Shown here: piece by piece, positions 1-32,367 of the stretch
Layout: every line of letters begins with the position of its first letter
Numbering within the stretch: position 1 is the first letter of the stretch
DNA from: Coriobacteriia bacterium
Lineage (GTDB): Bacteria > Actinomycetota > Coriobacteriia > Coriobacteriales > UBA8131
Direction of reading: 5' to 3'
Length of the DNA stretch: 32,367 bases
Assembly: GCA_009783245.1 (NCBI GenBank)
Contig: WRHL01000014.1
Location: 1-32,367 of the forward strand
Notes under the pieces: model-generated
What the model saw: only the letters and a program-made list of their open reading frames with translations
The model's database searches: none
What the model was told of the DNA's origin: nothing
Position numbers and translations under genes: made by a program

Positions 1-4
1 GAAG

Positions 5-109
5 GACAGAAGGGGCCGTTTCAGGACAGAAGGGGACGTTTCTATTTTGTCCTTTTCAAGGACAAAATAGAACCGTCCCCTTCTGTCCTGAACCGTCCCC
101 TTTGTCATG
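5..109. repeat. Nested inverted-repeat element (family A, 'GGACAGAAGGGGACG...CGTCCCCTTCTGTCC' / 'CCGTCCCCTTTGTCAT'), upstream of the flotillin gene
   Basis: Direct reading: arm 24-52 'ggacagaaggggacgtttctattttgtcc' is the reverse complement of 60-88 'ggacaaaatagaaccgtccccttctgtcc'. An outer arm 5-24 pairs with 89-109. The 'ccgtcccctttgtcat' motif is shared with the copies at 18189, 30109 and 30775. Confidence 0.7.
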
Positions 110-7914: not shown

Positions 7915-8075
7915 GGTCCTCCCTACCTCTCTTTGTAGGCATTTTCCCGTCTGCCTTTTTAATCAATACGATTCAGATAACCTAAATGTCGCTTCCCAAA
8001 AAGTTATAATTCAGTCTTAGGGAAACCGTAGCGTTGTGAACACGTCAAGATACGCTACAAGGAACAGGGAGGGGC

Positions 8076-8939
8076 TTGGATATGCAACGGCTGAAGAGAG
8101 TGTTTTTTGGATTGCTGCTTGTGTCATTTGTTATCTCTGGGACAGGCCTACTTTCAGCCTGTTCGGCTCCAGCAGGCAACGGGGCTAAAGGTGATGGACA
8201 GTCAAATGCTGAGAAAAGGACCCTGACCGTTGCCATGGAGCTTGCCTATCCGCCCTTTGAGACCAAGGATGCAACGGGCAATCCCAGCGGATTGAGCGTC
8301 GATTTCATCACCGAGTTCGCCAAGGCCTACAACTACGACATAGTCATCGAGAACACCGCGTGGGACGGCCTGATACCCTCACTGCAGACCGGGTTGGCAG
8401 ACTGTGTCATCAGCTCGATGACCATAACCGATGCTCGCGCCCAACAGGTGGATTTCAGCGATCCTTATGCCGTTGCACAACTGGCGCTGCTCACCAACAG
8501 CGGCTCGGGGATCAGCTCGATAGACGACCTCAATCAGACGGGAAAGAGCATCGCGGTCAAGACGGGATCGACCGGAGATATCTATGCGACTAACAACCTT
8601 CCCCTCACCACCATCATCCGCCTGGCTGATGAGAGCGCCTGTGTCACCGAGGTGACTCAGGGCAAGGTCGACGCGTTCATCTATGACCAGTTGACCATCT
8701 ACCGCAACCAGCAGAACAATCCAGATACAACAACAGCGGTGTTCATTCCGTTCCAGGACCCGGAGCATTGGGGTATAGCCGTCCAGAAAGGCAACAGTGA
8801 GCTTCTTGCCGAGCTGAATGAGTTCATTGCAACCAGCAAGACCGACGGCACCTTTGACAGACTGACACAAAAACACCTCCCCTCAGAGAAGGCTACCTTT
8901 GATGAGCTGGGGTTCAGATGGTTCTTTGATTTCAGCTGA
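8076..8939 (+). CDS. Polar amino acid ABC transporter, substrate-binding lipoprotein
   Basis: 287 aa. Lipoprotein signal 'GLLSACSAPAG'. Family-3 SBP motifs 'LTVAMELAYPPFE' and 'DAFIYDQLT'. RBS 'gggagggg'. Confidence 0.75.
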   Translation: MDMQRLKRVFFGLLLVSFVISGTGLLSACSAPAGNGAKGDGQSNAEKRTLTVAMELAYPPFETKDATGNPSGLSVDFITEFAKAYNYDIVIENTAWDGLIPSLQTGLADCVISSMTITDARAQQVDFSDPYAVAQLALLTNSGSGISSIDDLNQTGKSIAVKTGSTGDIYATNNLPLTTIIRLADESACVTEVTQGKVDAFIYDQLTIYRNQQNNPDTTTAVFIPFQDPEHWGIAVQKGNSELLAELNEFIATSKTDGTFDRLTQKHLPSEKATFDELGFRWFFDFS

Positions 8940-11706: not shown

Positions 11707-13401
11707 ATGAAACCTGTAAAGACACGTCTGACAATTGTTCTCTGCGCTCTTGTTCTGCTGTTAGCAGGTTGTGCAGCTGCACAGGATCCTGGTAAAAGCA
11801 GTTCAGTGCCAGAAACGGATTCTCTCCAGGTCAGTGCTGAGCTGTTCCCCCTGTCCTCAGAATGCATCAGGTGTCATAACGATGTTTTTCCAGGTGATGG
11901 CACTCACTATTCGTTTGTTGAGGACTGGTTCAACTCTATCCATGGTCAATCCTCAGTCGACCCGCTTTTCATGGCGGTGGTTCGGCGTGAGACCCTGGAA
12001 CATCCCGATGCCTCTGATGACATCCAGGCGATCTGTGCCAGCTGCCATCTACCAATGGCTGACATGATGGCTATCGCCACAAACCAATCCCGTAGTTTCT
12101 TGGATAATGCCGCCCTTTCTGGCCATGAGCTTAACCAGCTGTACCAAGATGGTGGTTCTTGCATGTTCTGCCACCAGATCACCTCATCGCCCATCGACGG
12201 GAACACCGCTTTCCGCGATACGATAATGTCTGTCAACCTGCACCAGGCTTCTGAGGGCCAGACCCGCTACCTGTATGGTTATCACCCGAGCAGCACGATA
12301 GCCCAGCAACCGATGATACAAGCCCTGGGCTACTCCACCGAGCAAAGCTTTGTAGAACGAAACGAACGGATCTGCACTGTTTGCCACACGCTCTATACGG
12401 ATTCTTTCACGGTAGACGGTCAGCCTACTGGGATGCAGCTGCCAGAGCAGGTAGTTGCCCTGGAGTGGAAGGGATCGGATTGGGGCGATAATTCCTGCCA
12501 ATCCTGCCATATGCCACCTGTTTTAGATGCGGGGCCATTCTCTAATCAGAATGTTGCTGAAGCTACGCAGGGTAGGATCTCCCTGCACAGCTTTGTAGGC
12601 GGCAACGCATACCTTCTGCAACTTAATGGAGGTACCGATGGCTCGCTGGAAAAAGGTGTGACGGCTACAACGGAATTCCTGCAGTCTCAGACGGCAACAC
12701 TTACGCTGAACAGCAGCATTGACGAGACTTCCGGGTCAGGTCCTGTGCTTATGCTGGATGTGGCGATAGACTCTCAGGTCGGCCACAAGTTCCCCACTGG
12801 GTTTCCTTCTCGACGGGCATGGATACACGTGCAGGTGTTTGATGAGGCGGGTTTCCTGATCTATGAATCTGGCGGCTACAACGCTGAAGGCATGATCCTT
12901 GACAACAATGCTGACCTGATCAAAGGAGCATTTGAACCGCACTATTCGATCATCGACCAACCTGGTCAGGTCCAGATCTACGAGTCAGTGATGCTCGACA
13001 GTGACGGCCTGGCAACAACCAGCCTGCTTCAAGGGGTTGTCTATGGCAAGGACAACAGGATCCTCCCTATCGGGTTTGAGAAGAATGAGCAGCAGAGAGA
13101 GGGATTTGCCGGAATCGATAAGAATGACAAGTCGGGTGATGCGGCGGTTGTCGGTGAGGCAGTGGAGGATGAGGATTTTGTCCAGGGTGGCGACATCACC
13201 TACTATCGTATCAGCCTGCCAGCCGATATTGGCGCTGTGGAAGTAAGGGTCGAATTACTCTACCAATCTGTTGGTTACCGCTTTATGGAAGACCTGCTGG
13301 GCCATCCGTCGCCTGAGCAACAGATCCTGGCAGACCTTGTCAAACAGCATCCCAACCTGCCGGTGTTGGTCGCCAAACAGGAGACCAAAGTCATCAGATA
13401 G
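11707..13401 (+). CDS. Lipoprotein pentahaem c-type cytochrome
   Basis: Five CxxCH motifs: CIRCH, CASCH, CMFCH, CTVCH, CQSCH. Sec/lipobox signal 'LVLLLAGCAAAQ'. RBS 'ggaggg' 6 nt before ATG 11707. About 270-aa haem-free C-terminal domain. GC visibly lower than the surroundings. Confidence 0.7.
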   Translation: MKPVKTRLTIVLCALVLLLAGCAAAQDPGKSSSVPETDSLQVSAELFPLSSECIRCHNDVFPGDGTHYSFVEDWFNSIHGQSSVDPLFMAVVRRETLEHPDASDDIQAICASCHLPMADMMAIATNQSRSFLDNAALSGHELNQLYQDGGSCMFCHQITSSPIDGNTAFRDTIMSVNLHQASEGQTRYLYGYHPSSTIAQQPMIQALGYSTEQSFVERNERICTVCHTLYTDSFTVDGQPTGMQLPEQVVALEWKGSDWGDNSCQSCHMPPVLDAGPFSNQNVAEATQGRISLHSFVGGNAYLLQLNGGTDGSLEKGVTATTEFLQSQTATLTLNSSIDETSGSGPVLMLDVAIDSQVGHKFPTGFPSRRAWIHVQVFDEAGFLIYESGGYNAEGMILDNNADLIKGAFEPHYSIIDQPGQVQIYESVMLDSDGLATTSLLQGVVYGKDNRILPIGFEKNEQQREGFAGIDKNDKSGDAAVVGEAVEDEDFVQGGDITYYRISLPADIGAVEVRVELLYQSVGYRFMEDLLGHPSPEQQILADLVKQHPNLPVLVAKQETKVIR

Positions 13402-15378: not shown

Positions 15379-15626
15379 ATGACTGATATAGTACTCCGCT
15401 CCCCACCATGCGTCAAGTACCTATAACGATAAGGACGGGGCTCACCCCTTCGTACCCCTGTCCCACCCCTGTCCCGTCCTACAAATGGAAATAATATACA
15501 GACTTGCCCTATTCTTATGCAACTTGAAATTTGCGATAATGGATGCGCGTACCTATAGATGGCTCGGTTCGAGCAAGGTCGCAGCCCTGTTTTATACAGA
15601 TTGAGGGACTGCCAGGAGGTAATATC

Positions 15627-16724
15627 ATGCGGTTTCAGCTGAAAGAGTACATCCAACCTGATTTTCAGGCCCTCAAGCTTGTCGATGCCCCTGATGCCCA
15701 GCTGGTGCCTGCCCCGGCGGACGGGGTCGCTCCCTTGGACTATCATGCCACAACCATCTTCCCTGAGTACTTCAAGGTGGCAGGCCAATGGTTGCTTGCA
15801 CAGGAAAGCCGTATGGACTGCGTGGCGGTATACATACCCAAAGAGCACAGGGTTGCGGTGCGGGAGTTCCGCACCCTCAAGAAAGGCGAGCCTGTCTTTG
15901 TGGGGCGCGCAGAAGATGGCAGCCAGGGCATCTACGTGCACCTTGACGCCTTTGATGATATGCGCCAGATGACAGCTGACAGCTTCGCGTTCCGTCAGGG
16001 GCGCAGCCGGGAGACCGCCTTCTCGCTCGACTATGACTTTCTGTATGAGCAATTACGGTACGAGAAGGAGCATGGCTACATTGTCTGGGTGGCGGGCCCA
16101 GCTCTCACCTTTGACGCTGACAGCCGCAATGCCTTCTCGCTTCTGTGCGAGCATGGCTATGTGCATGCCCTGCTTGCAGGCAACGCGCTCGCAGCCCATG
16201 ACCTGGAGGCCGCCTACCGCAAGACCGCACTGGGGCAGGATATCTACACCCAGGTCAGCCACCCCAACGGACATTACAACCACCTGGATACCATCAACCG
16301 CGTGCGCCAATGCGGCTCTATTCCCGCATTCATACAGCAGGAGCACCTGGATAACGGCATCCTGTACCAGTGCGTCAGGCACCAGATACCCTTTGTCCTC
16401 ACCGGCTCCATACGCGATGACGGCCCTCTTCCCGAGGTGCACGCAGATGTCTATAGCGGACAGAACGCCATGCGTGAGCAGCTCAGCAAGGCGACCACGC
16501 TTATCTGCATGGCAACCGCCCTGCACTCCATAGCCGCAGGCAACATCACCCCCTCCTTCCGCGTGATGCCTGACGGAAAGATCCGCCAGGTGTATTTCTA
16601 CCTGGTGGATATCTCGGAATTCACCGCGAACAAGCTGGGCGACCGCGGGAGCCTCTCGGCAAAGAGCATCATCACCAATGTGCAGGACTTCATTGTGAAT
16701 ACCAGCCGGGGGCTGATCCCTTGA
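15627..16724 (+). CDS. Conserved hypothetical enzyme (about 365 aa). Possibly LOR/SDH-like (TIGR00300) / ornithine-cyclodeaminase-like family. Unverified.
   Basis: Strong RBS 'ccaggaggtaatatc' before ATG 15627. Soluble protein with motifs 'HGYVHALLAGNALAAHDLE' and 'LTGSIRDDGPLPEV'. No confident family call from the sequence alone. Confidence 0.4.
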   Translation: MRFQLKEYIQPDFQALKLVDAPDAQLVPAPADGVAPLDYHATTIFPEYFKVAGQWLLAQESRMDCVAVYIPKEHRVAVREFRTLKKGEPVFVGRAEDGSQGIYVHLDAFDDMRQMTADSFAFRQGRSRETAFSLDYDFLYEQLRYEKEHGYIVWVAGPALTFDADSRNAFSLLCEHGYVHALLAGNALAAHDLEAAYRKTALGQDIYTQVSHPNGHYNHLDTINRVRQCGSIPAFIQQEHLDNGILYQCVRHQIPFVLTGSIRDDGPLPEVHADVYSGQNAMREQLSKATTLICMATALHSIAAGNITPSFRVMPDGKIRQVYFYLVDISEFTANKLGDRGSLSAKSIITNVQDFIVNTSRGLIP

Positions 16725-16873: not shown

Positions 16874-18193
16874 ATGAAGAGAATCATCATTATCGGAGCA
16901 GCGGGGCGGGATTTCCACAACTTCAATACCTGTTACCGGAACAACCCGGACTATGAGGTTGTGGCGTTTACCGCGGCGCAGATACCCGATATCGCGGGAC
17001 GCAGGTACCCGGCTGAGCTGGCTGGCAGCGGATACCCGGACGGGATTCCCATTTTTCCCCAGGATGATCTGGAGAGGTTGATACGGGAGTATGGGGTGGA
17101 TGAGTGCGTCTTCTCCTACAGCGATGTGACCTACAGTTTTGTCATGGGCCTGAGTGCGCGGGTGAATGCTGCCGGGGCGTCGTTTACGCTTCTGGGGCCC
17201 GCGCAGACCATGCTGAAGAGCGAGAAACCGGTGGTTGCCATTGGGGCGATCCGGACCGGCTGCGGCAAGAGCCAGACGGCGCGAAGGGTCATCGAGTGCC
17301 TCAACAAGAGGGGCCTAAGGGTTATCGCCATACGCCACCCCATGCCCTACGGCGACCTGAACGCGCAGGCTGTACAGCGTTTTGCCTCCCTGGATGACCT
17401 ACAAAGGCACAGCTGCACCATTGAGGAGATAGAGGAGTACGAGCCGCACATCACTAGCGGTAACGTGATCTATGCAGGTGTTGACTACGAGGCGATCCTA
17501 CGGCAGGCTGAGCAGGACCCGGCTGGCTGCGATATCATCCTCTGGGATGGCGGGAACAACGACTTCCCCTTTTATGAGCCTGACTTGATGATAACGGTGG
17601 TGGACCCGCACCGGCCGGGGCATGAGCTGTCCTATTACCCGGGTGAGGTTACGTTGCGCCTGGCGGATGTGGTGGTGATCAACAAGATCGACAGCGCGGA
17701 TTACGCTGGCATCCAGACGGTCAGGGACAACATCGCCCGGATCAACCCCGGGGCTTTGGTGGTGGATGCTGCTTCCACCATCAGGGTTGACGCACCAGAG
17801 CTGGTGAAGGGCAGGCGGGTCCTGGTGGTTGAGGATGGCCCCACGCTGACGCATGGGGAGATGCAGCTGGGTGCGGGGGTTGTTGCTGCCCAGCGCTTTG
17901 GCGCTGCTGCCATTGTGGACCCGCGCGCATATGCCGTGGGCCGTCTGGCTGATACCTATAGGACTTACCCCGGCATTGGCAAGGTGTTGCCTGCTATGGG
18001 TTACGGCGAGCAGCAGGTCAGCGACCTGGCCGCGACCATAGAGGCCACCCCCTGCGACACGGTTGTCATTGCAACTCCCATCGACCTGAGCAGGATCATC
18101 AGCATTGACAAGCCCCATACCCGGGTGAGTTATGACCTGCAGGAGATAGGGGCCCCTGACCTGGGCAGCATCCTGGACGAGTTTCTAGTATGA
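16874..18193 (+). CDS. P-loop NTPase resembling cyclic 2,3-diphosphoglycerate synthetase (COG2403-like)
   Basis: 439 aa. N-terminal Rossmann-like 'RIIIIGAAGRDFHNFN'. Central Walker A 'AIGAIRTGCGKSQTA'. Walker-B-like 'CDIILWDGGNND'. The size fits the cDPGS family. The assignment is from recollection of the family architecture. Confidence 0.45.
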   Translation: MKRIIIIGAAGRDFHNFNTCYRNNPDYEVVAFTAAQIPDIAGRRYPAELAGSGYPDGIPIFPQDDLERLIREYGVDECVFSYSDVTYSFVMGLSARVNAAGASFTLLGPAQTMLKSEKPVVAIGAIRTGCGKSQTARRVIECLNKRGLRVIAIRHPMPYGDLNAQAVQRFASLDDLQRHSCTIEEIEEYEPHITSGNVIYAGVDYEAILRQAEQDPAGCDIILWDGGNNDFPFYEPDLMITVVDPHRPGHELSYYPGEVTLRLADVVVINKIDSADYAGIQTVRDNIARINPGALVVDAASTIRVDAPELVKGRRVLVVEDGPTLTHGEMQLGAGVVAAQRFGAAAIVDPRAYAVGRLADTYRTYPGIGKVLPAMGYGEQQVSDLAATIEATPCDTVVIATPIDLSRIISIDKPHTRVSYDLQEIGAPDLGSILDEFLV

Positions 18194-23528: not shown

Positions 23529-24359
23529 CTAGTACGCCTTGAAGGCGCTCTTCGCGGTGAGGCAGACAGGGCAGGCTGTGAACGCCTCTCCTTTGTGGAT
23601 GTAGCCGCAGACAGGACAGAGGTAGTACTTGTCGTCATCTGGGGTATCAATGGTGTTGTAAGCGTTGAGGTAGCGCTCGGCATGATAGGCCTCAGCCAGT
23701 TTTGCTCGCGTGAAGATCTGTACCGCCTCGCTCTCGCCCTCATCCTGGGCCTTCTTGATGAAGGAGGGATACATATCCGAGGTCTCATACATCTCACCGC
23801 TTGCCCCCATGATCAGGTTGATGTCGGTTTCATGCGCAGTGGCCGCGGGGGCTGTTGGACGCGTAGTGCTGGAGTCCATCTTGGAGGCCAGGGCGAACTC
23901 GAGCTCGATGTGGATCTTCTCGGCATCAGAGGTGCAGGTGAACAGCCGGGCGAGCTGAGGAAAACCCTCCTTCTTTGCCGCTTCTGCAAAGGCAGCGTAT
24001 TTTGCCGATGCCCCCGTCTCGCCTGCAATAGCCGAGCAGAGGTTGTCATACGTGCTGCCAACAGCGGTTGTGCTGCCGGACATGATGTTGAAATTGCTTG
24101 CGCTATCAGCAGAGGGGACCGACGTTGGTGAGAGGACCCCACTCGTTGACCCCTCCGTAGAGCCACCGCTCGCACCAGCGTTACCAGATTTGGTATCACC
24201 TGCGCAAGCAGCCAAGATCCCCGCCATAGAGACTGTGGTGGCTCCCACAGCTGCCTTCTTCACAAAGTCCCGCCTGGTGACCTGTGCCAAAGGATGCTCC
24301 TTGGTGTTGTGTGAGCTCCCAGTTACGCCTGGGCTCTGCATTTCTCCTGATTCAAACAT
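23529..24359 (-). CDS. Rubrerythrin with a Tat signal peptide, a lipobox and a C-terminal rubredoxin-like domain
   Basis: Start placed at 'MFESGEM' with RBS 'gggaagggaaag'. Twin-arginine motif 'TRRDFVKKAAVGA', lipobox 'ILAAC'. S/G/T-rich linker. Rubrerythrin di-iron region 'ASAKYAAFAEAAKKEGFPQLARLF...EKIHIELEF'. C-terminal 'CPVCGY...CPVC'. Confidence 0.65.
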   Translation of the reverse strand: MFESGEMQSPGVTGSSHNTKEHPLAQVTRRDFVKKAAVGATTVSMAGILAACAGDTKSGNAGASGGSTEGSTSGVLSPTSVPSADSASNFNIMSGSTTAVGSTYDNLCSAIAGETGASAKYAAFAEAAKKEGFPQLARLFTCTSDAEKIHIELEFALASKMDSSTTRPTAPAATAHETDINLIMGASGEMYETSDMYPSFIKKAQDEGESEAVQIFTRAKLAEAYHAERYLNAYNTIDTPDDDKYYLCPVCGYIHKGEAFTACPVCLTAKSAFKAY

Positions 24360-24447
24360 AGTGCTTTCCCTTCCCCATCGGTATTTTACGTGCCTTTCCA
24401 AACAGCACGAGTATAGCGGATTGGCAGGGGAGTAGCATCTTCCTCAG

Positions 24448-24522
24448 GATAGAGGACGGTTCACAGGACAGAATGGGGACGGCAGAATGGGGACGGCATT
24501 ATCCTGCGAACCGTCCTCTGTC
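24448..24522. repeat. Family-A-related element with tandem 'CAGAATGGGGACGG' x2 flanked by inverted arms 'AGGACGGTTC/GAACCGTCCT'
   Basis: 'ggatagaggacggttcacaggacagaatggggacggcagaatggggacggcattatcctgcgaaccgtcctctgtccc', located between the rbr start and the tyrS stop. Confidence 0.65.
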
Positions 24523-24527
24523 CCAGC

Positions 24528-32058: not shown

Positions 32059-32367
32059 CACAGAAGGGGACGGTTCTATTCTGTCCCCGGTGCAGTTGAC
32101 GCACTCCCCTGCGCTTGCGCTAGAGCCTCCGTCATTGCGAGCGCAGCGCCCGATGGGCGCGCAGCGTGGCAATCTACGCAGCAGACTCTCATTGTTGGCA
32201 GTTTGTCACAGCGCATCACCTTGCAGGTTCGTAGAGAAAGAGAATCAAACGGGAGGCAATGCGCTGTGTTAGCGTCCCTCATCCCCAGCCGCTGGCGTAG
32301 ATTGCCACGTCGCCTTCGGCTCCTCGCAATGACGAGGAGGCAATGCGCCGCGTTTGCGTCCCTCATC
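32057..32367. repeat. Composite repeat array at the window end: A-like (32060-32088), B (32121-32170), C (32251-32284), B reverse-complement (32293-32337), C (32334-32367)
   Basis: B copies share 'cctcgtcattgcgagg...gcgacgtggcaatctacg' with the intragenic copy at 30172-30222. C copies share 'gaggcaatgcgc.g.gtt.gcgtccctcatc'. The two C copies are about 83 bp apart. The array is truncated by the window edge. Confidence 0.75.

What the first reader, a model, noticed from the sequence alone, without database searches (positions are those of the whole stretch)
23529..24401. Tat-exported lipoprotein rubrerythrin with a rubredoxin domain
A canonical twin-arginine motif (TRRDFVKKAAVGA) and a lipobox (ILAAC) precede an S/G/T-rich linker and a complete rubrerythrin (di-iron four-helix bundle plus C-terminal CxxC...CxxC). 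Rubrerythrins are normally cytoplasmic peroxidases. Tat export is consistent with a metallated, folded protein. The signals suggest an extracytoplasmic, membrane-tethered peroxide-detoxifying enzyme.
Basis: partly seen in the sequence, partly recalled or inferred. Interest (0 to 1): 0.55.

Follow-up and report, generated by a model that had tools for sequence, protein, structure and literature searches.

The report
Tat-exported lipoprotein nigerythrin (rubrerythrin peroxidase)
A gut-type actinobacterium (Coriobacteriia) encodes a normally cytoplasmic iron peroxidase, nigerythrin, behind a conserved folded-protein export signal and a lipid-anchor site, so it probably removes hydrogen peroxide on the outer face of the cell membrane, with an unknown electron supply.

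Summary
The minus-strand ORF 23529..24401 encodes a complete nigerythrin-type rubrerythrin. It is 61% identical, without gaps, to Desulfovibrio vulgaris nigerythrin, and all seven di-iron ligands and four Cys are present. Ahead of it lie TRRDFVK, an uncharged h-region, the lipobox L-A-A-C and a 23-residue G/S/T-rich tether.

The signal is not chance. All 95 full-length relatives carry [ST]RRx[FL]xK and a lipobox Cys 22-26 residues downstream. RR and that Cys are invariant in an 83-sequence alignment. Against the closest relative, the signal codons show 10 synonymous-only and 4 amino-acid differences, and both Arg codons differ synonymously.

No plausible start removes the RR motif. The candidates are TTG 24290 (253 aa) and ATG 24359 (276 aa).

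The family spans Eggerthellaceae, including Eggerthella lenta, where signal-less paralogues also occur. The gene stands apart from its neighbours and has no adjacent redox partner.

Export, lipidation, activity and electron donor are all inferred. Databases already label relatives "nigerythrin" or "Tat signal domain-containing protein", and signal-bearing rubrerythrins are common in metagenomes. I found no paper discussing them.

Verdict: real, a new variant of a known kind, of moderate interest.

The parts
23529..24290 (-). Most likely CDS: 253 aa plus stop, TTG start. This is the precursor of the Tat-lipoprotein nigerythrin. An alternative start at ATG 24359 gives 276 aa.
   Evidence: ORF list. 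It is identical to the NCBI gene model P0001, 'rubrerythrin family protein [Coriobacteriia bacterium]', on a 32367-bp contig. The family-wide median n-region is 5 residues, which fits the TTG start. The relative L029 has no start codon at the TTG position but does have the upstream ATG.
24297..24302 (-). Shine-Dalgarno-like AAGGAG, 6 nt upstream of TTG 24290.
   Evidence: Read directly from the sequence.
24357..24376 (-). Alternative start ATG (24357..24359) with the purine-rich GGGGAAGGGAAAG just upstream. Both are conserved in the closest relative.
   Evidence: DNA alignment with L029. The residues between this ATG and the TTG are not conserved as protein: 3 identical, 2 synonymous-only and 13 amino-acid-changing codons.
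24405..24421 (-). 17-nt block ATCCGCTATACTCGTGC, 100% conserved with the closest relative. It contains a -10-like TATACT (24410..24415) and is a candidate promoter.
   Evidence: Its function is inferred; the consensus promoter scan did not call it.
24258..24278 (-). Twin-arginine motif T-R-R-D-F-V-K (RR codons at 24270..24275).
   Evidence: The consensus [ST]RRx[FL][LVMI]K is present in 95 of 95 relatives. R6 and R7 are invariant. Both Arg codons differ synonymously from L029.
24207..24290 (-). Predicted Tat/lipoprotein signal peptide MAQVTRRDFVKKAAVGATTVSMAGILAA, cleaved before Cys.
   Evidence: The h-region is uncharged, with a family median Kyte-Doolittle hydropathy of 1.59. TIGR01409 scores 16.5 bits against a cut-off of 16.7. 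The AlphaFold model has low confidence here, as expected for a signal peptide.
24204..24215 (-). Lipobox L-A-A-C. The Cys (24204..24206) would become the lipidated N-terminus.
   Evidence: Family frequencies are L 90/95, A/G/S 90/95, A/G 95/95 and C 95/95, and the Cys lies 22-26 residues after RR. C29 is invariant.
24135..24203 (-). Low-complexity G/S/T/A-rich tether of 23 residues between the lipidated Cys and the enzyme.
   Evidence: In relatives the distance from the Cys to the conserved xNF motif inside the N-terminal segment is 24-46 residues, rich in A, T, S, P, E and D. Model pLDDT is about 44-50.
23532..24134 (-). Complete nigerythrin, 201 residues.
   Evidence: NF045783 matches profile positions 2-202 of 202. 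PDB 1YUZ/1YUX match at 5e-80 over 197 residues without gaps. The model superposes on 1yuz_B at rmsd 0.8 A, TM 0.96 and 61% identity.
23658..24047 (-). Di-iron four-helix-bundle domain. Ligands in P0001 numbering are E91, E124/H127, E166/E169 and E200/H203.
   Evidence: Pfam PF02915 at 3e-25. All seven ligand positions are invariant in 83 sequences.
23538..23621 (-). C-terminal rubredoxin-like Fe(Cys)4 domain: CPVC...CPVC.
   Evidence: Pfam PF21349 at 30.6 bits against a cut-off of 26.5. C225, C228, C240 and C243 are invariant.

Best explanation
The gene encodes a nigerythrin, a rubrerythrin-family hydrogen-peroxide reductase with a non-haem di-iron site and an Fe(Cys)4 site.

Proposed pathway:
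1. The protein folds and takes up iron in the cytoplasm.
2. It is exported, folded, through the Tat translocase by an N-terminal twin-arginine signal.
3. It is lipid-modified on the lipobox cysteine and cleaved by the lipoprotein machinery (Lgt, Lsp).
4. It then hangs on a flexible tether of about 23 residues from the outer leaflet of the cytoplasmic membrane of this monoderm Coriobacteriia bacterium.
5. There it reduces H2O2 to water at the di-iron site. Electrons enter through the solvent-exposed Fe(Cys)4 centre from an extracytoplasmic donor that is not yet identified.

The likely benefit is protection of the many oxygen- and peroxide-sensitive Tat-exported Mo, Fe-S and flavin reductases of Eggerthellaceae. 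The enzyme might also let H2O2 serve as an electron sink.

Shown here: the gene, an intact enzyme with all ligands, a conserved and selected Tat motif and lipobox, and the family distribution.

Inferred: export route, lipidation, peroxidase activity outside the cell, the donor and the physiological role.
For: - Enzyme identity: Pfam Rubrerythrin plus RUBY_RBDX. The nigerythrin equivalog scores above its cut-off over its full length. The match to D. vulgaris nigerythrin is gapless at 61% identity, and the predicted fold matches at rmsd 0.8 A. All di-iron and Cys ligands are invariant. Only 5 positions consistently distinguish exported from signal-less forms, so it is the same enzyme.
- Signal: the motif, uncharged h-region and lipobox occur at fixed spacing in 95 of 95 relatives. 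R6, R7 and C29 are invariant. TIGR01409 matches 44 of 83 relatives, and the formate-dehydrogenase Tat-target model matches 34 of 83.
- Selection on the signal codons: 13 identical, 10 synonymous-only and 4 amino-acid changes. This resembles the enzyme domain (108, 63, 30) and differs from the unconstrained upstream stretch (3, 2, 13).
- Paralogues: truly signal-less nigerythrins, with an in-frame stop 12 codons upstream of the start, occur in Eggerthellaceae MAGs. One such paralogue and the Senegalimassilia anaerobia Tat-lipoprotein form both list a longest contig of 2,903,547 bp, so they are probably in one genome. The signal therefore marks one paralogue rather than all copies.
- Biological plausibility: E. 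lenta exports Tat-signal Mo enzymes and the signal is removed (PMC7028382). Tat-dependent lipoproteins are established in Actinobacteria (PMC6833217). The Fe(Cys)4 centre of nigerythrin sits at +213 mV (PMC7482061), so quinol- or cytochrome-level donors are thermodynamically adequate.
- Candidate donor nearby: a lipoprotein with five CxxCH haem-binding motifs is encoded 10 kb away in the window.
- Link to oxidative stress: a Fur/PerR-family gene lies directly upstream in one relative. A catalase gene lies about 6-8 kb away in Gordonibacter and Paraeggerthella.
Against: - No experiment supports export, and no SignalP, TatP or LipoP run was possible.
- The Tat HMM is marginally below its cut-off for this particular protein (16.5 against 16.7 bits), and Pfam TAT_signal did not report it.
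- The known reductant, rubredoxin fed by NAD(P)H, is cytoplasmic. No donor gene is linked: the gene has no adjacent redox partner in variable contexts in ten neighbourhoods.
- H2O2 crosses membranes, so the selective advantage of an external scavenger is not self-evident.
- If the ATG at 24359 is the true start, the Cys lies at residue 52. That is outside the usual 15-35 range of lipoprotein rules (recalled from memory).
Confidence: 0.65

Rival explanations
1. Same exported lipoprotein, but its main role is respiratory. It would be a quinol- or extracellular-electron-transfer-linked terminal H2O2 (or O2) reductase that lets the cell use peroxide as an electron acceptor. That would make it a non-haem analogue of periplasmic cytochrome c peroxidase rather than a simple detoxifier.
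For: - E. coli Ccp is a periplasm-facing enzyme that lets the respiratory chain use H2O2 as terminal oxidant (PMC8115020, citing Khademian and Imlay 2017).
- Eggerthellaceae are respiratory specialists, and Tat-exported reductases sit next to the gene in some relatives.
- The nigerythrin centres have high potentials (PMC7482061).
- A multihaem lipoprotein is encoded in the window.
Against: - No linkage to quinol dehydrogenase, NrfD-type or cytochrome genes was seen in any neighbourhood examined.
- Gut H2O2 fluxes are low.
- Nothing in the sequence separates this role from detoxification.
Confidence: 0.2
2. The N-terminal signal is vestigial or acts only as an uncleaved membrane anchor or chaperone-binding tag. 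The enzyme would then work on the cytoplasmic side, as classical rubrerythrins do.
For: - Remnant Tat signals are known in some cytoplasm-facing enzymes (own knowledge, for example NarG).
- The Tat HMM is borderline for this protein.
- The only known reductants are cytoplasmic.
Against: - A vestigial signal would not keep RR, an uncharged h-region and a lipobox Cys invariant at fixed spacing in 95 of 95 sequences at 53-82% identity.
- It would not show purifying selection equal to the enzyme domain.
- Signal-less paralogues exist in the same family of bacteria, so a cytoplasmic copy is already available.
Confidence: 0.07
3. Exported, but not a peroxidase in vivo. It would be an extracytoplasmic iron-handling protein, acting as a ferroxidase or in iron capture, or as a redox sensor.
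For: - Ferroxidase and other activities have been reported for rubrerythrins in vitro (summarised in PMC3672088).
- The fold is ferritin-like.
- A Fur-family regulator lies upstream in one relative.
Against: - All residues of the peroxidase-type di-iron site and the electron-entry Fe(Cys)4 domain are invariant.
- Identity to an enzyme with demonstrated peroxidase activity is 61% (the title of Iyer et al. 2005, listed in PMC5114695, names peroxidase activity).
- No iron-transport genes are linked.
Confidence: 0.06
4. A lipoprotein exported unfolded by Sec, with the RR pair incidental. Iron would be acquired outside the cell.
For: Many other rubrerythrins in metagenomes and in Bacteroidales or Spirochaetota MAGs carry plain Sec or lipoprotein signals without RR. 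Export without Tat therefore seems possible for this fold.
Against: - The full S/T-R-R-x-F-L-K consensus, not just RR, is conserved.
- The h-region has the low hydrophobicity typical of Tat signals.
- Tat HMMs match about half of the family.
Confidence: 0.05

Closest known systems
Desulfovibrio vulgaris nigerythrin (PDB 1YUZ, 1YUX, 1YV1; NCBIfam NF045783)
   Same: - 61% identity over 197 residues without a gap.
- Same fold, at rmsd 0.8 A.
- Same N-terminal segment before helix 1, the same seven di-iron ligands and the same Fe(Cys)4 domain.
- Scores above the equivalog cut-off.
   Different: The characterised protein is 202 aa, has no signal and is regarded as cytoplasmic. This one has 52 extra N-terminal residues: a Tat signal, a lipobox and a tether. 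Only 5 positions in the mature part consistently differ from signal-less forms.
Classical rubrerythrin (D. vulgaris Rbr, PDB 1RYT/1B71; P. furiosus Rbr)
   Same: [quoted passage not shown]
   Different: Only about 32-37% identity. The RuberyRbr equivalog scores 115 bits against a cut-off of 200. Classical rubrerythrin is cytoplasmic and rubredoxin-dependent (PMC545781).
TAT-SOR: superoxide reductases predicted to carry twin-arginine signals (SORGOdb)
   Same: An anaerobe-type, non-haem-iron ROS reductase, normally cytoplasmic, found with a predicted Tat signal. It is known only from sequence (PMC3116461).
   Different: A different enzyme family and substrate (superoxide). It was reported in Desulfovibrio, Desulfuromonas and Geobacter, with no lipobox described.
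Bacterial cytochrome c peroxidase (E. coli Ccp/YhjA)
   Same: A membrane-associated enzyme facing outward from the cytoplasm, reducing H2O2 with respiratory-chain electrons (PMC8115020, PMC10301912). This is the closest functional analogue for what an exported nigerythrin would do.
   Different: A haem enzyme that is unrelated in sequence and fold. The protein here has no CxxCH motif (direct reading). Ccp's quinol link is established; here the donor is unknown.
Tat-dependent lipoproteins of Actinobacteria (for example Streptomyces SCO1639)
   Same: A twin-arginine signal ending in a lipobox, in an actinobacterium (PMC6833217).
   Different: The cargo is different. None of the described examples I know of is a rubrerythrin.

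Membership tests
Rubrerythrin family (Pfam PF02915 + PF21349) | Ferritin-like di-iron four-helix-bundle domain above the gathering score. | tested here: met
   89.6 bits against a cut-off of 22.8, covering profile positions 1-137 of 137.
Rubrerythrin family (Pfam PF02915 + PF21349) | Seven di-iron ligands: E, ExxH, ExxE, ExxH. | tested here: met
   E91, E124/H127, E166/E169 and E200/H203 are present and invariant in 83 relatives. They align to nigerythrin.
Rubrerythrin family (Pfam PF02915 + PF21349) | C-terminal rubredoxin-like Fe(Cys)4 domain with two CxxC pairs. | tested here: met
   PF21349 scores 30.6 bits against a cut-off of 26.5. C225, C228, C240 and C243 are invariant.
Rubrerythrin family (Pfam PF02915 + PF21349) | H2O2 reductase activity with a reduced one-electron donor. 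| not testable with these tools
   Needs purified protein.
Nigerythrin (NCBIfam NF045783 equivalog) | Whole-protein score at or above the curated cut-off, over the full profile. | tested here: met
   343.7 to 344.2 bits against 340, covering profile positions 2-202 of 202. The margin is narrow. All 83 relatives match the model at E<=0.01.
Nigerythrin (NCBIfam NF045783 equivalog) | Sequence and structure match to the characterised D. vulgaris protein, including its N-terminal segment. | tested here: met
   The match is gapless from residue 6 of 1YUZ at 5e-80. The model gives TM 0.96 and rmsd 0.8 A.
Nigerythrin (NCBIfam NF045783 equivalog) | Signal-less, roughly 202-aa cytoplasmic architecture of the characterised member. 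| tested here: not met
   52 extra N-terminal residues form a Tat/lipoprotein signal and tether. This is an architectural variant.
Twin-arginine (Tat) signal peptides (TIGR01409 / PF10518) | S/T-R-R-x-F-L-K consensus near the N-terminus. | tested here: met
   TRRDFVK is present. The consensus holds in 95 of 95 relatives.
Twin-arginine (Tat) signal peptides (TIGR01409 / PF10518) | HMM score above the curated cut-off. | tested here: inconclusive
   TIGR01409 scores 16.5 bits against 16.7 for this protein. 44 of 83 relatives match at E<=0.01. PF10518 is precomputed on 4 relatives but was not reported for this protein.
Twin-arginine (Tat) signal peptides (TIGR01409 / PF10518) | Uncharged h-region of at least 13 residues and moderate hydrophobicity after the motif. 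| tested here: met
   19 uncharged residues here. No family member has a charged residue in the h-region, and the median Kyte-Doolittle value is 1.59.
Twin-arginine (Tat) signal peptides (TIGR01409 / PF10518) | Export depends on TatA/TatC. | not testable with these tools
   No tat genes lie in the window, and no genetics is possible.
Bacterial lipoproteins (lipobox; Lgt/Lsp substrates) | [LVI][ASTVI][GAS]C at the end of the h-region. | tested here: met
   L-A-A-C is present. The Cys is invariant (95 of 95) and lies 22-26 residues after RR.
Bacterial lipoproteins (lipobox; Lgt/Lsp substrates) | Cys at residues 15-35 with K/R in the first 7 residues (PROSITE PS51257-type rule, recalled from memory). 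| tested here: inconclusive
   Met with the TTG start (Cys 29; R6, R7). Not met with the ATG start (Cys 52). The start is not settled.
Bacterial lipoproteins (lipobox; Lgt/Lsp substrates) | Diacylglyceryl modification and cleavage by signal peptidase II. | not testable with these tools
   Needs mass spectrometry or globomycin.
Bacterial cytochrome c peroxidase (functional analogue only) | CxxCH haem-binding motifs. | tested here: not met
   The translated ORF has none. It is not a member of this family; the resemblance is functional only.

The most novel reading that the evidence does not exclude
Exported nigerythrin is the terminal enzyme of a previously unrecognised extracytoplasmic, non-haem H2O2 (or O2) reducing branch of the electron-transport chain of gut Eggerthellaceae. 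It would be fed from menaquinol through multihaem cytochromes or flavinylated lipoproteins. It would both shield the cell's large set of exported oxygen-sensitive reductases and allow peroxide respiration. More broadly, signal-bearing rubrerythrins would form a widespread, unstudied class of cell-surface or periplasmic peroxidases. These include Sec-type forms in Bacteroidales, lipoprotein forms in Spirochaetota, and giant secreted proteins with up to 8 rubrerythrin domains.
Probability: 0.2. Interest if true: 0.7.

Novelty: new variant of a known kind. Interest (0 to 1): 0.45.

Why it matters
Rubrerythrin and nigerythrin are the textbook cytoplasmic peroxide defence of anaerobes, driven by rubredoxin. 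A conserved, selected Tat-lipoprotein version implies that peroxide is also reduced outside the membrane in Eggerthellaceae. It also implies that an unknown extracytoplasmic electron donor exists.

These bacteria, including E. lenta and Gordonibacter, carry out drug, catechol and polyphenol metabolism with exported, oxygen-sensitive metalloenzymes. An external peroxidase could therefore set their tolerance to the oxic-anoxic interface of the gut mucosa.

The hypothesis can be tested directly in cultivable species. The same question applies to the many signal-bearing rubrerythrins seen in metagenomes.

Tried and rejected
The only later Met lies inside the h-region, and the upstream residues are conserved and under purifying selection.
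- **290-aa start at 24401: judged unlikely.** It lies 9 nt after a conserved TATACT box, and the extension is not conserved as protein.
- **Search for an operon partner or electron donor: none found.** I examined ten neighbourhoods across the family. The gene has no adjacent redox partner and its contexts vary: tyrS-ngr-amidohydrolase here and in L029, and pgi-ngr-lytTR in Eggerthella, Gordonibacter, Paraeggerthella and Senegalimassilia.
- **Whether the exported form is ancestral to signal-less nigerythrin: unresolved.** One NJ tree nests the signal-less clade inside the exported forms. In bootstraps, all Tat-lipoprotein forms are monophyletic in 31 of 100 replicates and the signal-less forms in 44 of 100.
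- **Residues specific to exported forms that might mark a new donor-docking surface:** only 5 discriminating positions, none obviously informative.
- **Genome-contig scan with a single protein:** it returned only 18 loci, because it finds close relatives only.
- **Literature:** six full-text searches and several paper look-ups found no description of an exported, periplasmic, Tat or lipoprotein rubrerythrin. The original nigerythrin and rubrerythrin papers (PMC179298, PMC94855) are not held. Subscription journals are not covered, so absence of a report is not proof.
- **Promoter and terminator consensus scan:** it gave nothing useful for the minus strand.
Full report
**Observation**

The ORF 23529..24401 on the minus strand is real.
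- TRRDFVKKAAVGA, with the RR codons AGG CGG at 24270..24275.
- An uncharged stretch ending in I-L-A-A-C, with the Cys codon at 24204..24206.
- A 23-residue G/S/T/A-rich segment.
- A rubrerythrin with two C-terminal CPVC pairs.

Pfam gives Rubrerythrin (3e-25) and the rubrerythrin rubredoxin-like domain (2e-7), both above their gathering scores.

**What the enzyme is**

NCBIfam places it in the nigerythrin equivalog, at 343.7 bits against a cut-off of 340 and covering the whole 202-position profile. The classical rubrerythrin equivalog scores only 115 against 200.

Against solved structures the best match is Desulfovibrio vulgaris nigerythrin (1YUZ, 1YUX) at 5e-80. The alignment runs from residue 6 to residue 202 of that protein without a gap.

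An AlphaFold model built on an 83-sequence alignment has a mean pLDDT of 87.5. Residues 1-50 have low confidence. Residues 51-253 form four long helices plus a small beta domain. The model superposes on 1yuz_B with rmsd 0.8 A, TM 0.96 and 61% identity.

In the alignment the seven di-iron ligands are invariant: E91, E124, H127, E166, E169, E200 and H203. So are the four cysteines C225, C228, C240 and C243. The enzyme part is therefore an intact nigerythrin.

**Is the signal real?**

A search of 5.8 billion proteins gave 942 homologues at E<=1e-10.
- The best roughly 100 are 250-270 aa long and come from Eggerthellaceae and other Coriobacteriia.
- Below them come 200-204-aa signal-less nigerythrins, at about 65% identity over the mature part only.

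Of the 120 listed, 95 are full-length with an RR, and every one of those has a lipobox cysteine. Their features are:
- Positions around RR read [IVL]-[ST]-R-R-x-[FL]-[LVMI]-[KR]-x-A.
- The Cys follows RR by 22-26 residues (median 23).
- The lipobox reads L (90/95), A/G/S (90/95), A/G (95/95), C (95/95).
- No h-region contains a charged residue, and the median hydropathy is 1.59.

R6, R7 and C29 are among the 49 invariant columns of the 83-sequence alignment. TIGR01409 matches 44 of 83 members, and the formate-dehydrogenase Tat-target model matches 34 of 83. For the window's own protein TIGR01409 is just under its cut-off, at 16.5 against 16.7 bits.

The few family members without RR are truncated gene calls. 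They begin, for example, with MKGAA... or at an internal Met, and some are nearly identical to full-length members.

**Codon-level test**

The closest relative, P0002, is 80% identical. It lies on the syntenic contig L029, which has the order tyrS, nigerythrin, amidohydrolase. Codon comparison with the window:

| Region | Identical | Synonymous-only | Amino-acid change |
|---|---|---|---|
| Signal, Q40 to C66 | 13 | 10 | 4 |
| Enzyme domain | 108 | 63 | 30 |
| Stretch upstream of the TTG | 3 | 2 | 13 |

Both arginine codons differ synonymously: AGG CGG here and AGA AGG in L029. The signal peptide is therefore translated and under purifying selection.

**Start codon**

There are three candidates.
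It lies 9 nt downstream of a TATACT box. That box sits within a 17-nt block that is 100% conserved with L029. This start is unlikely.
- ATG 24359 (276 aa). Both the ATG and the purine-rich GGGGAAGGGAAAG before it are conserved in L029. L029 has no start codon at the TTG position.
- TTG 24290 (253 aa). It has AAGGAG 6 nt upstream and is the NCBI model. It gives the 5-residue n-region seen in most relatives.

I cannot decide between the last two.

**Surroundings**

The window is a Coriobacteriia MAG contig. Its genes are housekeeping and transport genes. TyrRS lies upstream, and an amidohydrolase and MnmA lie downstream on the same strand.

Ten neighbourhoods of family members show no adjacent redox partner and no conserved partner.
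- In Eggerthella, Gordonibacter, Paraeggerthella and Senegalimassilia the gene sits between pgi and a LytTR regulator, or a LysR-type regulator.
- In one relative a Fur-family gene is immediately upstream.
- In another, Tat-signal flavin and molybdopterin reductases flank it.

No rubredoxin, cytochrome or quinol dehydrogenase is linked. About 10 kb away the window encodes a lipoprotein with five CxxCH motifs and a weak MtrC/MtrF-like match. Its family is widespread in Coriobacteriia and Chloroflexota. It is a possible donor, but the link is only spatial.

**Distribution and paralogy**

Cluster look-ups name these hosts:
- Eggerthella lenta (ACV54132.1, UniProt C8WJD0) and E. sinensis.
- Gordonibacter, Paraeggerthella and Arabiibacter.
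- Raoultibacter massiliensis and Senegalimassilia anaerobia.
- Enteroscipio rubneri, Hugonella massiliensis and Denitrobacterium.

NCBI labels them "nigerythrin", "rubrerythrin family protein" or [quoted passage not shown].

Signal-less nigerythrins also occur in Eggerthellaceae MAGs (L009-L011 and L023). One very common signal-less form, P0371, has an in-frame stop 12 codons upstream of its start. It lies in a typical Eggerthellaceae context, with a FAD reductase, a LuxR-type regulator and ApbE, at 64.6% GC. Its longest contig is 2,903,547 bp, the same figure as for the Senegalimassilia exported form. Both paralogues are therefore probably in one genome.

Only five positions of the mature domain consistently differ between exported and signal-less forms. 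The order of branching between the two forms is not resolved.

**How unusual is it?**

An exhaustive HMMER search of 1.84 billion cluster representatives gave 3013 hits. I classified the N-termini of 148 of the best 150 with my own simple rules:

| N-terminal class | Representatives |
|---|---|
| Hydrophobic, Sec-like | 37 |
| Lipobox without RR | 14 |
| RR plus lipobox | 10 |
| Long multi-domain protein with a hydrophobic N-terminus | 23 |
| No extension | 17 |
| Extension that does not look like a signal | 24 |
| Remainder | other or unclassifiable |

Named examples include 206-aa rubrerythrins with a classic Sec signal in Bacteroidales and Bacteroidetes MAGs, and a lipoprotein form in a Spirochaetota MAG. 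Predicted export of rubrerythrins is therefore common in sequence space. The Tat-lipoprotein nigerythrin is the Coriobacteriia version of it.

**Literature**

The published view is that the superoxide reductase and rubrerythrin system acts in the cytoplasm (PMC545781). My searches for rubrerythrin together with twin-arginine, Tat, periplasm, signal peptide, extracytoplasmic, Eggerthella or nigerythrin found no paper describing an exported rubrerythrin. The closest items are these:
- A rubrerythrin-like protein accumulating in Ruminococcus flavefaciens supernatants, noted by the authors as unexpected (PMC3672088).
- Predicted Tat-signal superoxide reductases (PMC3116461).
- A rubrerythrin gene clustered with multihaem cytochromes in Anaerosomatales, which are also Coriobacteriia (PMC9686372).

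Supporting background:
- E. lenta exports Tat-signal molybdoenzymes, and the signal is removed (PMC7028382).
- Tat-dependent lipoproteins exist in Streptomyces (PMC6833217).
- The Fe(Cys)4 centre of nigerythrin has a potential of +213 mV (PMC7482061).
- E. coli Ccp uses H2O2 as a respiratory oxidant from the periplasmic side (PMC8115020).

The library does not cover subscription journals, so prior description cannot be excluded.

**Mechanism proposed**

1. The precursor folds and binds iron in the cytoplasm (inferred; this is the rationale for Tat).
2. The Tat system translocates it (inferred from the motif).
3. Lgt and Lsp lipidate Cys 29 and remove the signal (inferred from the lipobox).
4. 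The enzyme is held at the outer face of the membrane on a disordered tether (model).
5. H2O2 is reduced at the di-iron site, with electrons entering through the Fe(Cys)4 domain (by homology to nigerythrin).
6. The donor is unknown. Candidates are multihaem cytochromes, flavinylated lipoproteins of extracellular electron-transfer chains, or Fe-S subunits of exported reductases. All are thermodynamically adequate and none is shown.

**Verdict**

It is a known enzyme joined to a known targeting signal in a combination I did not find in the literature. It is conserved across a medically relevant bacterial family, is already auto-annotated in databases, and belongs to a wider unstudied population of signal-bearing rubrerythrins. 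Interest is moderate.

Noticed in passing
window 11707..13401 (+): A 564-aa ORF with a lipoprotein signal (MKPVKTRLTIVLCALVLLLAGC) and five CxxCH haem-binding motifs. It has a weak Pfam MtrC/MtrF domain II/IV match, below the cut-off. NCBI calls it a hypothetical protein and uses a later start (476 aa). Homologues are widespread in Coriobacteriia and Chloroflexota. It is a possible extracytoplasmic electron carrier.
   Followed up: partly
window 3..102, 24447..24523 and 32065..32076: A dispersed intergenic hairpin-forming repeat family with core AG(A/G)GGACGGTTC. It occurs 5 times against 0.12 expected by chance. The copy between tyrS and the nigerythrin gene has 22-nt inverted arms around two tandem CAGAATGGGGACGG units. 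That copy is absent from the homologous site of the closest relative L029, so it looks like a REP- or MITE-like insertion, or a terminator for tyrS.
   Followed up: partly
P0121-P0128, P0136, P0140 (representative library; no window coordinates): Giant predicted secreted proteins with Sec-type signals and 3 to 8 tandem rubrerythrin domains, for example P0121 (1957 aa, 8 matched stretches) and P0122 (1338 aa, 6 stretches). Their source organisms are unnamed.
   Followed up: no
L013, L014, L016-L018, L021 (Bacteroidales/Bacteroidetes MAGs); L019 (Spirochaetota MAG): 206-aa rubrerythrins with a classic Sec signal (MKKTLLSLVILGVFSVFGFAQ...) and a 205-aa form with a lipoprotein signal (...MTVFGC). 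Predicted export without a Tat motif would require metal loading outside the cytoplasm.
   Followed up: partly
L009-L011, L023, L031-L033: Truly signal-less nigerythrin paralogues in Eggerthellaceae. P0371 and the Tat-lipoprotein form of Senegalimassilia anaerobia share a longest-contig length of 2,903,547 bp, which suggests both copies sit in one genome.
   Followed up: partly
L005 7401..7850 (+), immediately upstream of the homologue at 8001..8774: A Fur-family (possibly PerR-like) regulator gene lies directly upstream on the same strand. This recalls the Fur-like gene of the D. vulgaris rubrerythrin operon (own knowledge).
   Followed up: no
window 24405..24421 (-): The 17-nt block ATCCGCTATACTCGTGC is perfectly conserved with the closest relative, although the flanks have diverged. 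It contains a -10-like TATACT and may be the promoter or a regulator site.
   Followed up: no
window 15543..16724 (+) and 16874..18193 (+): A protein matching only the C-terminal Rossmann part of arginine dihydrolase ArgZ is followed by a 439-aa ORF with no Pfam match at E<=1e-5. I did not examine this unannotated pair further.
   Followed up: no
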